DNA of 64,000 bases from Betaproteobacteria bacterium RIFCSPLOWO2_12_FULL_68_20 (GCA_001770655.1 MERQ01000080.1:15272-79271), one strand, 5' to 3'; positions 44,841-47,289 are shown, counted from the first letter of the stretch. The notes: generated from the letters alone by a model not told the origin. A program made the numbers and translations.

Positions 44841-44973
44841 TGTTACCTCCTGGCTGCTTTTTTTCGCCGGAACTGCTTTCCCAACGAAAACCTAGCATGC
44901 CCCCTGTGCCGGAGCAAATTGCGCGCCCGGCAGCGGACCCGCGCGAGTGCTGACCGGTAGAATCCGGCCCGCC

Positions 44974-45414
44974 ATGAACGAGAAAACGTCCGGCATTCGT
45001 CCGGGGATGACAACTGAGCAGTTCAGGGCGTTCGGCGCGCGCCACCTGCCGGGGCTGCTCGGGGTCGAGATCGTGTCGGTCTCGGAAGGGAGCGTCGAGA
45101 GCCGGCTCGAGGTGCGCCAGGACGTGATGGCGCCGAACGGCTACCTGCATGCGGCGACGGTGATCGCGCTCGCCGACACGAGCTGCGGCTACGGCTGCGT
45201 GCGCCGGCTGCCTCAGGGCGCGAGCGGCTTCACGACCATCGAGCTGAAGGCGAGCTTCCTCGGCACAGTGCGCGAGGGCGCGATCCGGTGCCGCGCGACG
45301 CCGCTGCATCTGGGGCGCACCACCCAGGTGTGGGACGCGGTGGTGAGCGTCGAGGCGACTGCGGCGAAGATCGCGCAGTTCCGCTGCACCCAGATGGTCC
45401 TCTGGCCCAAGTAG
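44974..45414 (+). CDS. PaaI-family hotdog-fold thioesterase
   Basis: ORF 44947-45414, ATG at 44974. NGYLHAATVIALADTSCG and GRTTQVW are the typical pattern. Confidence 0.85.
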   Translation: MNEKTSGIRPGMTTEQFRAFGARHLPGLLGVEIVSVSEGSVESRLEVRQDVMAPNGYLHAATVIALADTSCGYGCVRRLPQGASGFTTIELKASFLGTVREGAIRCRATPLHLGRTTQVWDAVVSVEATAAKIAQFRCTQMVLWPK

Positions 45415-45431
45415 ACAAGGCGCGGGAAATC

Positions 45432-45515
45432 ATGCTTGAATCCGGACCCATGAGCCGCCGGTTCTTCGGCTTTTACTTTTTCTTCCCGCGCCTGCTGGCG
45501 GAAGGGACCGGCTAA
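45432..45515 (+). CDS. putative Phe/Tyr-rich leader peptide (MLESGPMSRRFFGFYFFFPRLLAEGTG)
   Basis: C-terminal part of track ORF 45288-45515. Six Phe and one Tyr in eight consecutive codons. ATG at 45432 (AAGG/GGGA upstream) or 45450. Followed by the attenuator hairpin and aroG. Confidence 0.55.
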   Translation: MLESGPMSRRFFGFYFFFPRLLAEGTG

Positions 45516-45538
45516 GCTCACCCCGACGAGTCCAAGAG

Positions 45539-45573
45539 AACCGCCAGCGCCGCAAGCCTGGCGGTTTTTTTTT
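45539..45573 (+). terminator. rho-independent terminator / attenuator upstream of aroG
   Basis: Stem CCGCCAG (45541-45547) / CTGGCGG (45558-45564) followed by nine T (45565-45573). It ends 15 nt before the aroG ATG. Confidence 0.7.
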
Positions 45574-45588
45574 GCACAGGGAGCAACC

Positions 45589-46698
45589 ATGACGACACCC
45601 ACCGACGGCTACCTGGGCCTGGTCCCCGACGACAGGACCTCGCTCACCGACGACGAGCGCATCGAGAACATCGTTCCGCTGCCGCCGCCCGAGCACCTGA
45701 TACGCTTCTTCCCGATCCAGGGCACGCCGGTCGAGACCCTGATCGCCGAAACGCGGCGCAAGGTGCGACAGATCCTGCACGGGCGCTCCGACCGGCTGCT
45801 GGTGGTGATGGGGCCCTGCTCGATCCACGACCCGCAGGCGGCCCTCGCCTATGCCGAAAAGCTCGCCGCCGAGCGGCAGCGGCACGGGGCGGAACTCGAG
45901 CTCCTGATGCGGATGTATTTCGAGAAGCCGCGCACCACGGTGGGATGGAAGGGACTGATCAACGATCCGTATCTCAACGGCAGCTTCCGCATCAACGAGG
46001 GGCTGAGGATCGCGCGCGACCTGCTGGTGCGCATCAACCGCGCCGGCGTTCCGGCCGGCTGCGAGTTCCTCGACGTGATCTCGCCGCAGTACATCGGCGA
46101 CCTCGTCTCCTGGGGCGCCATCGGGGCGCGCACCACCGAGAGCCAGGTGCACCGCGAGCTCGCCTCCGGGCTCTCGGCGCCGGTCGGGTTCAAGAACGGC
46201 ACCGACGGCAACGTGAGGATCGCCGTGGACGCCATCCTGGCGGCGCGCCAGAAGCACCACTTCCTCTCGGTGCACAAGAGCGGGCAGGTGGCGATCGTCG
46301 AGACCCGCGGCAACGACGACTGCCACATCATCCTGCGCGGCGGCAGGACCCCGAACTACGACGCGGCGAGCGTGAGGGAGGCCTGCGCCGAGCTCGAGCG
46401 CGCCAAGCTCCCCGAGCGGCTGATGATCGACTGCTCGCACGCCAACGCGTCCAAGCAGTACCGGCGCCAGGTCGAAGTCGCGCGCGAGGTCGCGGCGCAG
46501 GTCTCCGGCGGCGATCGCCGCATCGTCGGGGTGATGGTCGAGTCGCACTTGCTCGAAGGGCGCCAGGACCTGCACCCCGGCAAGCCACTGAAATTCGGCC
46601 AGAGCATCACCGATCCCTGCCTGGGCTGGGAGGACTCGGCCGAGGTGATCGAAACCCTCGCCGACGCGGTGAAAAAGCGCCGCAAGCAGCGCAAGTAG
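45589..46698 (+). CDS. aroG: class I 3-deoxy-7-phosphoheptulonate (DAHP) synthase
   Basis: 369 aa. GPCSIHD, KPRTTVGWKGL and IGARTTESQ motifs. Which aromatic amino acid feedback-inhibits the enzyme cannot be told from the sequence. Confidence 0.93.
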   Translation: MTTPTDGYLGLVPDDRTSLTDDERIENIVPLPPPEHLIRFFPIQGTPVETLIAETRRKVRQILHGRSDRLLVVMGPCSIHDPQAALAYAEKLAAERQRHGAELELLMRMYFEKPRTTVGWKGLINDPYLNGSFRINEGLRIARDLLVRINRAGVPAGCEFLDVISPQYIGDLVSWGAIGARTTESQVHRELASGLSAPVGFKNGTDGNVRIAVDAILAARQKHHFLSVHKSGQVAIVETRGNDDCHIILRGGRTPNYDAASVREACAELERAKLPERLMIDCSHANASKQYRRQVEVAREVAAQVSGGDRRIVGVMVESHLLEGRQDLHPGKPLKFGQSITDPCLGWEDSAEVIETLADAVKKRRKQRK

Positions 46699-46746
46699 GC
46701 GATGAAGCACCGCGCGCGCGGCAGGTAAGCGATAATCGCGGGCGCC

Positions 46747-47289
46747 ATGGCAGATCGCCCGCAATCTCTCGCGCACCTGGAGTTCCTCGGCGACGCGACG
46801 GGATTCGCCGCGCAGATGCACGCGCTCATCCCGAAGTGCGCGCTGCTGGAGAACTTCTCGCCGGCCGAGGTGCGGCTGCTCGCGCATTTCATGGACGTGT
46901 ACCGTGCCGAGCCGGGTGCCGAGATCATCCACGAGGGCGAGGGCGGCGACTTCATGCTGATGATCGTCGAAGGCAGGGTCGAAGTGCGCAAGCGCGATCG
47001 CTGGAACACCCCCCAGGTCATCGCGACGGTCGAGGCCGGGCGCACGCTGGGCGAGATGTCGATGATCGATGGCGAGCCGCGTTTCGCCACCTGCGTGGCG
47101 ATCGAGCCGACGCTCGCCGCGGTGCTCGACCGGGAGGCCCTGGCGCGAATCATCGTCGAGCAGCCGATGCTCGGCGCCAAGATCCTGATGGAGCTGGTGC
47201 TGATGCTGTCGCAGCGCCTGCGCGCGACCAGCCTGCGGCTGATGGGATTTCTCGACGAGCAGGCGCAGCGCGCGACCGGTACGCTTTGA
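46747..47289 (+). CDS. stand-alone cyclic-nucleotide-binding (CAP effector) domain protein
   Basis: 180 aa. cNMP-binding pattern GE.GD.M..IVEG.V.V...... GE.S.IDG.PR.A. No DNA-binding HTH after it. Confidence 0.8.
   Translation: MADRPQSLAHLEFLGDATGFAAQMHALIPKCALLENFSPAEVRLLAHFMDVYRAEPGAEIIHEGEGGDFMLMIVEGRVEVRKRDRWNTPQVIATVEAGRTLGEMSMIDGEPRFATCVAIEPTLAAVLDREALARIIVEQPMLGAKILMELVLMLSQRLRATSLRLMGFLDEQAQRATGTL

What the first reader, a model, noticed from the sequence alone, without database searches (positions are those of the whole stretch)
45432..45588. Phe/Tyr-rich leader peptide with terminator and alternative pairing upstream of the DAHP synthase gene
Seen: a short ORF ends at 45515 and encodes ...MSRRFFGFYFFFPRLLAEGTG, with six Phe and one Tyr in eight codons. 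Downstream, CCGCCAG (45541-45547) pairs with CTGGCGG (45558-45564), followed by nine T, ending 15 nt before the aroG ATG. An identical CTGGCGG copy sits inside the leader ORF (45495-45501). It could pair with 45541-45547 instead and so act as an antiterminator. Established: this layout is the classic ribosome-mediated attenuation design, as in the E. coli pheA leader. Inference: the first committed step of aromatic amino acid synthesis would be controlled by charged tRNA-Phe/Tyr levels. I do not know whether this has been described for this lineage.
Basis: partly seen in the sequence, partly recalled or inferred. Interest (0 to 1): 0.6.

Follow-up and report, generated by a model that had tools for sequence, protein, structure and literature searches.

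The report
Aromatic leader-peptide attenuator before aroG
A 21-codon mini-gene packed with phenylalanine and tyrosine codons, followed by a switchable transcription stop signal, sits directly before the first gene of aromatic amino-acid synthesis; the mechanism is textbook, but this widespread Burkholderiales family is not in Rfam and I found no paper that interprets it.

Summary
The leader ORF (ATG 45450 to TAA 45513-15) encodes MSRRFFGFYFFFPRLLAEGTG. Its FFGFYFFF run is the only 8-codon window with at least 7 aromatic residues in all six frames of the 3.48-Mb genome. A strong terminator (45538-45567, then T9) ends 15 nt before aroG.

The CUGGCGG copy in the ORF is part of a 9-bp antiterminator (45493-45501 with 45541-45549). 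Covariation supports this helix in 19 and in 100 homologues, including a base that is bulged out in the terminator. Folding with ribosome masks fits classical attenuation: a stall at Phe/Tyr codons keeps the antiterminator, and a ribosome at the stop codon destroys it.

The element was found in about 30 of 151 sampled genomes of the order, and a DAHP synthase gene followed in all 100 aligned matches. It has no Rfam match. In Burkholderia cenocepacia, a supplementary table (Sass 2017) lists the homologous 159-nt terminated RNA without interpreting it.

New here: a conserved promoter lies 8 nt before the ATG, so the leader peptide is probably translated from a leaderless mRNA.

This scan has already noted the same kind of element in at least 80 other genomes. 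Verdict: real, well supported, classical mechanism, new member of a known kind.

The parts
45412..45417 (+). Predicted -35 box TAGACA; it overlaps the TAG stop of the upstream hotdog-thioesterase gene.
   Evidence: Relatives carry TTGCCA, TAGACA or TGGACA at the same place, 17-18 nt before the -10 box. In the Burkholderia homologue, TTGCCA-N17-TATAAA lies before the experimentally mapped TSS. Inferred for this window.
45433..45441 (+). Predicted extended -10 box TGcTTGAAT (hexamer 45436-41), 8 nt before the leader ATG.
   Evidence: TGnTT(G/C)AAT is conserved in the window's clade. Other clades carry TANNNT at the same position. 44 of 110 distinct loci have such a box 6-9 nt before the ATG. The hexamer lacks the canonical A at position 2. 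Inferred.
45450..45515 (+). Leader-peptide ORF, 21 codons plus TAA: MSRRFFGFYFFFPRLLAEGTG. No Shine-Dalgarno sequence; probably leaderless.
   Evidence: Homologous aromatic-rich ORFs are present in all 100 aligned relatives.
45462..45485 (+). Regulatory codons F5 F6 G7 F8 Y9 F10 F11 F12 (TTC TTC GGC TTT TAC TTT TTC TTC).
   Evidence: Unique in the genome. Family average per peptide is 4.8 F, 1.7 Y and 0.7 W.
45493..45501 (+). Region 2: the 5' strand of the antiterminator, UGCUGGCGG, inside codons L15-E18.
   Evidence: Nascent-RNA folds; covariation with 45541-45549.
45538..45550 (+). Region 3: the 5' arm of the terminator, GAACCGCCAGCGC. Bases 45541-45549 pair alternatively with region 2.
45556..45567 (+). 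Region 4: the 3' arm of the terminator, GCCUGGCGGUUU.
   Evidence: 96% of cells are paired across 19 orthologues.
45565..45573 (+). Run of nine T bases of the intrinsic terminator.
45580..45583 (+). Shine-Dalgarno sequence GGAG of aroG.
   Evidence: Read from the sequence; 5 nt before ATG 45589.
45589..46698 (+). aroG, class I (AroF/G/H-type) DAHP synthase, 369 aa: the regulated gene.
   Evidence: NCBIfam TIGR00034 aroFGH scores 527 bits (cut-off 173). The AroG equivalog model scores 537 bits, below its cut-off of 568.

Best explanation
This is a classical ribosome-mediated transcription attenuator that sets aroG (DAHP synthase) transcription according to the supply of charged tRNA-Phe and, to a lesser degree, tRNA-Tyr.

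Proposed sequence of events:
1. Transcription starts from a promoter (-35 45412-17, extended -10 45433-41) at or within about 2 nt of the leader AUG (45450). The 21-codon leader ORF is therefore probably translated as a leaderless mRNA.
2. When Phe-tRNA and Tyr-tRNA are plentiful, the ribosome runs through codons 5-12 onto region 2 (45493-45501) and the stop codon (45513). Region 2 cannot then pair with region 3. The terminator (45538-47 with 45558-67, then U9) forms, and RNA polymerase stops 15 nt before aroG.
3. When they are scarce, the ribosome stalls on the F/Y run (45462-45485). Region 2 stays free and pairs with 45541-45549 in a 9-bp antiterminator. The terminator cannot form, and aroG is transcribed.

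Shown: the sequence elements, their conservation, covariation in the antiterminator, and a terminated short RNA in a homologue. Inferred: the promoter and leaderless start, the ribosome positions, and the physiological response.
For: - Elements present and unique in the genome.
- No room for a promoter between the T-run and the aroG ATG (15 nt), so aroG transcripts must pass through the terminator.
- Nascent RNA ending at 45549-45557 folds as the 45493-45501:45541-45549 helix. Ribosome masks at F5-F11 keep this helix, and a mask at the stop codon abolishes it. The 2:3 duplex is -19.8 kcal/mol and the 3:4 duplex is -21.0 kcal/mol.
- The 2:3 duplex is stronger than shuffles at z <= -2 in 16 of 19 orthologues.
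- Covariation in the antiterminator, 19 sequences: score 0.162 against 0.071 for shuffles, reached by 0 of 500 shuffles. Pair G45494:C45548 reads GC 9, AU 4, UA 3, CG 1. C45548 is unpaired in the terminator, so this signal belongs to the antiterminator alone.
- Covariation in the antiterminator, 100 sequences: 0.096 against 0.057, 0 of 500 shuffles. Pair U45496:A45546 reads UA 62, CG 8, UG 2.
- CTG and GCG inside region 2 are nearly invariant, although local codon usage is CTG 0.50 / CTC 0.47 and GCG 0.55 / GCC 0.39. The constraint is therefore on the RNA.
- Gene association: all 100 covariance-model matches have a DAHP synthase gene downstream and an F/Y/W-rich ORF. About 95 pattern hits in named Burkholderiales do too.
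- Experimental support from a homologue: B. cenocepacia J2315 aroG (BCAL3282) gives a 159-nt short 5'UTR RNA ending at the terminator (PMC5688073 Table S3). It is 155/159 identical to locus L168, which matches the model at E = 1e-13.
- Promoter: the mapped TSS in that homologue lies 7 nt after TATAAA. The same -35/-10 architecture in the window puts the TSS at about 45448-45450. 44 of 110 loci have the -10 box 6-9 nt before the ATG. Most clade members with 16-23 nt spacing carry a GGAG-like Shine-Dalgarno sequence instead.
Against:
- The full-length RNA always folds as the terminator at equilibrium. This is expected for a kinetic switch but gives no proof.
- A classical 1:2 'anti-antiterminator' helix is not supported by covariation (65.8% paired against 64.5% for shuffles).
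- With a -15/+12 footprint, a stall at the last Phe codon (F12) would already cover region 2. Only stalls at F5-F11 would give read-through.
- The -10 hexamer TTGAAT lacks the usual A at position 2.
- About one third of the closest aroG orthologues (10 of 30) lack the element.
Confidence: 0.85

Rival explanations
1. The hairpin is simply the intrinsic terminator of the upstream hotdog-thioesterase gene (44947-45414). The aromatic-rich ORF is a chance reading frame, and aroG has its own unregulated promoter.
For: The terminator lies downstream of a same-strand gene. Weak covariance-model matches elsewhere are ordinary gene-end terminators with similar stems.
Against: - Only 15 nt separate the T-run from the aroG ATG, so there is no room for a promoter.
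- The aromatic ORF is unique in the genome and conserved with aroG in 100 of 100 matches, whatever the upstream gene.
- Covariation links the ORF to the terminator arm.
- A conserved promoter lies between the thioesterase gene and the ORF.
- In B. cenocepacia the short RNA starts at its own TSS.
Confidence: 0.03
2. The small ORF acts through its peptide. It could be a functional hydrophobic micro-protein, or a nascent arrest peptide of the TnaC/SecM type that senses a free aromatic amino acid in the ribosome tunnel rather than charged tRNA.
For: The C-terminal half (P-R-x-L-A-E-G-x-G) and a basic residue at position 3 are conserved within the window's clade.
Against: - The conserved L-A-E-G is encoded by the invariant CUGGCGG(A/G)G, with no synonymous variation. 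It disappears as a peptide motif in other clades (LADREG, AVERx, AGGxx), while GGCGG stays.
- The order of residues in the aromatic run varies freely, while its composition is kept.
- The peptide is too short and too variable for a folded product.
Confidence: 0.05
3. The terminator/antiterminator switch is set by a trans-acting factor or a ligand, without translation. Candidates are a riboswitch, a T-box-like tRNA contact, or a TRAP/PyrR-like RNA-binding protein.
For: The 2:3 and 3:4 alternative would work with any agent that sequesters region 2. No 1:2 helix is supported.
Against: - No Rfam family matches, even at E <= 10.
- The region between the ATG and region 2 is conserved as aromatic codons in one frame, not as sequence or structure.
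- The start codon, the frame and a stop 12 nt after region 2 are conserved.
- The leader is too short for a T-box.
Confidence: 0.04

Closest known systems
E. coli / gamma-proteobacterial pheL-pheA attenuator (Rfam RF01859 Phe_leader) and pheM-pheST
   Same: A short leader peptide with a run of Phe codons; an intrinsic terminator with a mutually exclusive antiterminator; sensing of charged tRNA-Phe by ribosome position.
   Different: - The regulated gene differs: DAHP synthase, the pathway entry, rather than the Phe branch or the synthetase.
- There is no sequence or structure match to RF01859, even at E <= 10.
- Tyr, and in relatives Trp, codons are mixed in.
- Region 2 lies inside the ORF, upstream of the stop codon.
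- The start is probably leaderless.
- No covariation supports a 1:2 helix.
Corynebacterium glutamicum aroR leader peptide upstream of aroF (DAHP synthase), Mentz 2013 (PMC4046766) and Neshat 2014 as summarised in PMC11802643
   Same: A ribosome-mediated attenuator placed before a DAHP synthase gene. The leader holds Phe-Tyr-Phe, and read-through rises under Phe limitation.
   Different: It is in Actinobacteria and has only three regulatory codons. Homology was not tested here and is unlikely: the resemblance is one of design, not of family. The window's leader has 7 aromatic codons and a terminator sequence that is conserved across the order.
B. cenocepacia J2315 'short 5'UTR' RNA of aroG BCAL3282 (Sass et al. 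2017, PMC5688073, Table S3)
   Same: Same RNA family: MSAKFYFYFFWYLRPLADREG leader, CUGGCGG, and AACCGCCGG...CCGGCGGU8 terminator. It is 155/159 identical to L168, which matches model R1. It shows that a terminated 159-nt RNA exists.
   Different: It is listed only as an unnamed short 5'UTR with a terminator. The main text mentions no leader peptide and no phenylalanine. It has a 31-nt 5'UTR before the AUG, whereas the window's promoter lies 8 nt before the AUG.
C. glutamicum ilvBNC leader peptide made without a ribosome-binding site (Morbach 2000, cited in PMC4046766)
   Same: A precedent for an attenuator leader peptide that is translated without a Shine-Dalgarno sequence.
   Different: Actinobacteria, where leaderless mRNAs are common; a different amino acid. 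I know it only through the citation.

Membership tests
Ribosome-mediated (leader-peptide) transcription attenuators | A short ORF with clustered codons for the amino acid(s) made by the regulated pathway | tested here: met
   Six Phe and one Tyr in 8 codons; unique in the genome; conserved in 100 of 100 homologues.
Ribosome-mediated (leader-peptide) transcription attenuators | An intrinsic terminator between the leader ORF and the structural gene, with no promoter in between | tested here: met
   12-bp stem plus U9, dG about -19 kcal/mol, 15 nt before the aroG ATG; 96% of cells paired in orthologues.
Ribosome-mediated (leader-peptide) transcription attenuators | A mutually exclusive antiterminator that uses the 5' arm of the terminator and a segment whose availability depends on ribosome position | tested here: met
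   45493-45501 pairs with 45541-45549; shown by nascent folds with ribosome masks; covariation reached by 0 of 500 shuffles in A1 and in A2.
Ribosome-mediated (leader-peptide) transcription attenuators | A 1:2 helix (anti-antiterminator) that forms when the leader is not translated | tested here: inconclusive
   A stable 1:2 fold exists in this sequence (-28 kcal/mol). Across orthologues it is no better than shuffles (65.8% against 64.5% paired). Only a small local CGCC/GGCG hairpin is kept (82.9% paired).
Ribosome-mediated (leader-peptide) transcription attenuators | A prematurely terminated leader transcript is detectable | tested here: inconclusive
Met in the homologous B. cenocepacia element: a 159-nt RNA with a terminator.
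Ribosome-mediated (leader-peptide) transcription attenuators | Read-through increases when the cognate charged tRNA is limiting | not testable with these tools
   Needs reporter or Northern assays under Phe/Tyr limitation.
Rfam Phe_leader (RF01859) | A match to the family covariance model | tested here: not met
   cmscan of 45000-46000 at E <= 10 lists no Phe_leader or any other leader family; the best hits are unrelated and far below gathering scores.
Burkholderiales aroG aromatic-leader family (model R1, built here) | Aromatic-rich ORF, CUGGCGG inside the ORF, AACCGCCNG...CNGGCGGUU terminator, and a DAHP synthase gene directly downstream | tested here: met
   The window scores 121 bits. About 30 of 151 sampled genomes of the order have a full-length match at E < 1e-5. 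All 100 matches examined have DAHP synthase downstream. The model was built partly from the window, so the window's own score is circular.

The most novel reading that the evidence does not exclude
The leader peptide of this attenuator is translated from a leaderless, or at most 2-nt-leadered, mRNA. The conserved promoter (-35 TAGACA, extended -10 TGcTTGAAT) ends 8 nt before the AUG. About 40% of family members share this 6-9 nt spacing, while others have a 17-35 nt leader with or without a Shine-Dalgarno sequence. If so, ribosome loading at the 5'-terminal AUG is tied directly to transcription initiation. I found no description of this variant of the attenuation design for Proteobacteria. In addition, the whole order-wide aroG leader family is so far uninterpreted in the papers I could search and is absent from Rfam.
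Probability: 0.45. Interest if true: 0.45.

Novelty: new member of a known kind. Interest (0 to 1): 0.38.

Why it matters
DAHP synthase is the committed entry step of the shikimate pathway. In E. coli its genes are controlled by the TyrR and TrpR repressors. For Betaproteobacteria/Burkholderiales, the comparative-regulon papers I could read name no regulator for them.

This element would fill that gap. It suggests a protein-free, tRNA-charging-based control of pathway entry across many Burkholderiales, including Burkholderia, Paraburkholderia, Cupriavidus, Ralstonia, Limnobacter and many uncultured lineages.

Practical uses:
- It gives annotators a small ORF and an RNA family to add.
- It explains a published but uninterpreted short RNA in B. 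cenocepacia.
- It marks a feature to remove or tune when engineering aromatic-compound production in Cupriavidus or Paraburkholderia.
- The probable leaderless start offers a compact natural system for studying the coupling of transcription initiation, 70S loading and attenuation.

The mechanism itself is textbook, so the surprise for a specialist is modest.

Tried and rejected
- Rfam scan at a permissive E-value: no leader family, only noise.
- 1:2 anti-antiterminator taken from the minimum-free-energy fold: not supported by covariation. I do not claim it.
- Other attenuators in the same genome: a crude scan for His, Trp, Leu, Thr, Ile/Val and Phe leader ORFs followed by terminators found nothing convincing. 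The 'APWWT' hit on contig C23 is just a gene end plus its terminator.
- Second DAHP synthase paralogue (G000:C108:8015-9034, 51% identity): no leader; it directly follows another gene.
- pheA lies inside a long open frame or operon with no leader nearby.
- Weaker 'full-length' covariance-model matches (E about 1e-5 to 1e-4, in G059 and G158): ordinary gene-end terminators with similar stems and no aromatic ORF. They are false positives, so only matches with E < 1e-5 were counted.
- About 20 of 120 pattern hits were the opposite strand of the palindromic terminator or came from unrelated phyla.
- Upstream ATG 45432 as the start codon: rejected. It lies in the -10 box and is not conserved in frame.
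- Literature: 9 full-text searches found no paper describing an aroG leader peptide in Beta- or Gammaproteobacteria. Only the uninterpreted entry in a B. cenocepacia supplementary table turned up. Subscription-journal papers such as Vitreschak 2004 and Panina 2001 could not be read, so an earlier in-silico mention cannot be excluded.

Full report
**1. The observation**

- An ORF in the frame of 45288..45515 ends at TAA 45513-15. From ATG 45450 it encodes MSRRFFGFYFFFPRLLAEGTG.
- Codons 5-12 (45462-45485: TTC TTC GGC TTT TAC TTT TTC TTC) give six Phe and one Tyr in eight codons.
- CCGCCAG (45541-47) pairs with CTGGCGG (45558-64). The full stem is 45538-47 with 45558-67, plus 45549-50 with 45556-57, with C45548 bulged; dG is about -19 kcal/mol.
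- Nine T follow (45565-73). After a further 15 nt that hold a GGAG Shine-Dalgarno sequence (45580-83) comes the ATG of a 369-aa class I DAHP synthase (45589-46698). It scores 527 bits on TIGR00034 aroFGH, and 537 bits on the AroG equivalog model, just under that model's cut-off of 568.
- The second CTGGCGG is at 45495-45501.

The finding's start coordinate, 45432, is an upstream in-frame ATG. It lies in what I take to be the -10 region and is not conserved in frame in relatives.

**2. More than chance**

- FFGFYFFF is the only 8-codon window with at least 7 aromatic residues in all six frames of the whole 3.48-Mb assembly, which holds 6.96 million codon positions.
- It is the only aromatic-rich short ORF followed by a terminator in the genome.
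- The CCGCCNG...CNGGCGG-T motif occurs once in the genome.

**3. Structure and mechanism**

At equilibrium the full leader folds as the terminator, as all attenuators do. The informative folds are the nascent ones.

- RNA ending at 45538 forms a 1:2-type structure (-28 kcal/mol).
- Once region 3 is out (RNA ending at 45549-45557), the minimum-free-energy structure is a 9-bp helix, 45493-45501 (UGCUGGCGG) with 45541-45549 (CCGCCAGCG).
- With a ribosome footprint of -15/+12 around the A site, stalls at F5 to F11 leave this helix as the minimum-free-energy structure. A ribosome at F12 or at the stop codon covers region 2 and abolishes it.
- The duplex energies are similar: 2:3 is -19.8 kcal/mol and 3:4 is -21.0 kcal/mol. 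Timing would therefore decide the outcome.
- There are only 15 nt between the U-run and the aroG ATG, so aroG cannot have a promoter of its own downstream of the terminator.

**4. Conservation**

- Among the best DAHP synthase orthologues in 40 related genomes, 19 of 30 upstream regions carry an aromatic-rich ORF ending in ...LAEG.., the CUGGCGG, a spacer of 21-27 nt and the AACCGCCAG...CCUGGCGGU(n) terminator. A twentieth (L021) was picked up later by the covariance model.
- A pattern scan of one genome per species hit its 120-locus limit. About 95 hits were this element directly upstream of a DAHP synthase gene. The named hosts were Paraburkholderia, Burkholderia, Caballeronia, Trinickia, Cupriavidus, Ralstonia, Pandoraea, Pararobbsia, Limnobacter, Extensimonas and Usitatibacter. 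MAGs labelled Thiobacillaceae, Hydrogenophilales and Lysobacterales also carried it. The remaining hits were the other strand of the palindromic stem or unrelated phyla.
- A covariance model (R1) found full-length matches at E < 1e-5 in about 30 of 151 genomes drawn evenly from the order, spread over at least 15 GTDB families. It found only one further genome among about 149 families of the rest of the class.
- All 100 aligned matches have a DAHP synthase gene downstream and an F/Y/W-rich ORF. The peptides average 23 aa with 4.8 F, 1.7 Y and 0.7 W; 88% contain Tyr and 61% contain Trp.
- Weaker matches (E about 1e-5 to 1e-4) are ordinary terminators.

**5. Covariation**

- The terminator is almost invariant: 96% of cells are paired and 7 of 12 pairs never vary. 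That says little either way.
- The antiterminator carries real signal. In the 19 gene-centred sequences its covariation score is 0.162 against 0.071 for shuffles (0 of 500 shuffles reach it), and all slid controls are lower.
- The key pair is G45494:C45548, which reads GC 9, AU 4, UA 3, CG 1. C45548 is the bulged, unpaired base of the terminator, so its covariation with the base 5' of CUGGCGG can only reflect the 2:3 helix.
- In the 100-sequence alignment, which was fitted to the terminator and not to this helix, the score is 0.096 against 0.057 (0 of 500). Pair U45496:A45546 reads UA 62, CG 8, UG 2: where the arm is CCGCCGG, region 2 is mostly (C/U)CGGCGG.
- The codons inside region 2 (CTG GCG) are nearly invariant, although neighbouring genes use CTG/CTC at 0.50/0.47 and GCG/GCC at 0.55/0.39. 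The 'LAEG' conservation is therefore an RNA constraint, not a peptide one.
- The 1:2 fold is not supported across orthologues (65.8% against 64.5% paired). Only a small CGCC/GGCG hairpin next to region 2 is kept. I therefore claim a two-helix switch in which the ribosome itself masks region 2, and I leave a 1:2 element open.

**6. Promoter and probable leaderless start** (inference, new relative to the finding)

- Relatives in the window's clade share TTGCCA/TAGACA, then 17-18 nt, then TGnTT(G/C)AAT. Other clades have TANNNT at the same place.
- In the window these are TAGACA 45412-17, which overlaps the stop codon of the upstream hotdog-thioesterase gene, and TGcTTGAAT 45433-41. The ATG follows 8 nt later.
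- 44 of 110 distinct loci have the -10 box 6-9 nt before the leader ATG, against 3-10 loci in equally wide control windows further upstream.
- Clade members with 16-23 nt spacing mostly carry a GGAG, GAGG or AGGA motif before the ATG (sequences). This fits the promoter assignment.
- In the Burkholderia group, TTGCCA-N17-TATAAA lies such that the experimentally mapped 5' end (see section 7) is the 7th nt after the box. Applied to the window, this puts the start at about 45448-45450, giving a 0-2 nt leader with no Shine-Dalgarno sequence.
- Weak point: TTGAAT lacks the canonical A at position 2.

**7. Literature**

- Nine full-text searches found no description of an aroG leader peptide in Proteobacteria.
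- A regulon survey of Proteobacteria mentions attenuation only for trp and pheA in gammaproteobacteria (PMC5343134).
- A survey of RNA regulons notes that Phe attenuators were not in Rfam at that time (PMC3766115).
- The design has a precedent in Corynebacterium glutamicum. There, aroR (Phe-Tyr-Phe) precedes aroF and responds to Phe limitation (PMC11802643, PMC4046766). The ilvB leader peptide in that species is made without a ribosome-binding site (Morbach 2000, cited).
- Most relevant is Table S3 of Sass et al. 2017 (PMC5688073). It lists, for B. cenocepacia J2315 aroG (BCAL3282), a 159-nt 'short 5'UTR' RNA with a terminator (z-score -4.07), with 288 nt from the TSS to the annotated CDS.
- That RNA's sequence encodes MSAKFYFYFFWYLRPLADREG, holds CUGGCGG and ends in AACCGCCGGCGAACCCGGCGGU8. 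It is 155/159 identical to locus L168, a bona fide R1 match.
- The paper's main text never mentions a leader peptide or phenylalanine. The terminated transcript has therefore been seen in a homologue, but the element has not been interpreted.

**8. Earlier notes of this scan**

The index holds 81 notes in at least 80 genomes on aromatic leader peptides before DAHP synthase genes. Several concern Burkholiales homologues, more precisely Burkholderiales homologues, and they reach the same reading. I treated them as leads only. The conservation, the absence from Rfam and the C. glutamicum precedent were re-tested here.

**9. Rivals**

- A plain terminator of the upstream gene is excluded for three reasons: there is no room for an aroG promoter, the ORF is linked to aroG regardless of the upstream gene, and covariation ties the ORF to the terminator arm.
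- A peptide-specific role (micro-protein or arrest peptide) is unlikely. The conserved residues are explained by RNA, and the order of residues in the aromatic run varies freely.
- A translation-independent riboswitch or protein switch is unlikely. What is conserved between the ATG and region 2 is the codon composition in one frame, with a conserved start and a conserved stop.

**10. Verdict**

It is a classical Phe/Tyr-sensing leader-peptide attenuator of aroG. It belongs to a large Burkholiales-wide, that is Burkholderiales-wide, family that is uncatalogued in Rfam and uninterpreted in the papers I could read. The mechanism is textbook, hence moderate interest. The probable leaderless start is the least ordinary feature and is untested.

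Noticed in passing
window 45453-45461 and 45486-45491; alignment A1: A basic residue at leader position 3 (M-x-R, or K at position 4 in the Burkholderia group) and a Pro-Arg pair just after the aromatic run are widely conserved. The antiterminator and terminator pairings do not explain them. CCGCGCC may form a small hairpin with GGCGG (82.9% of cells paired). A role in leaderless initiation or in ribosome pausing is possible.
   Followed up: partly
G000:C108:8015-9034 (minus strand), outside the window: A second class I DAHP synthase paralogue (51% identical) has no leader peptide or terminator and directly follows a CbiX-like gene. Only one of the two isoenzymes is under the attenuator.
   Followed up: partly
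L021 / L164 (G033:C3:65870-66002): In a low-GC relative (the leader is 39% GC), the leader and terminator lie about 140 nt upstream of aroG rather than 15-30 nt. In Burkholderia and Paraburkholderia the gap is also about 70-150 nt. That leaves room for a second control element or a second promoter in those lineages.
   Followed up: no
window 46699-46746: No plus-strand terminator follows aroG, and the stand-alone cNMP-binding-domain gene (46747-47289) starts 48 nt later. It could be co-transcribed with aroG and so fall under the attenuator too.
   Followed up: no
window 44947-45414: The upstream hotdog-fold thioesterase (PaaI/MenI-like) ends with ...LWPK* in several relatives too (L003, L009, L045, L120). 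The attenuator's -35 box overlaps its stop codon, so the thioesterase-leader-aroG order is conserved within the clade.
   Followed up: partly
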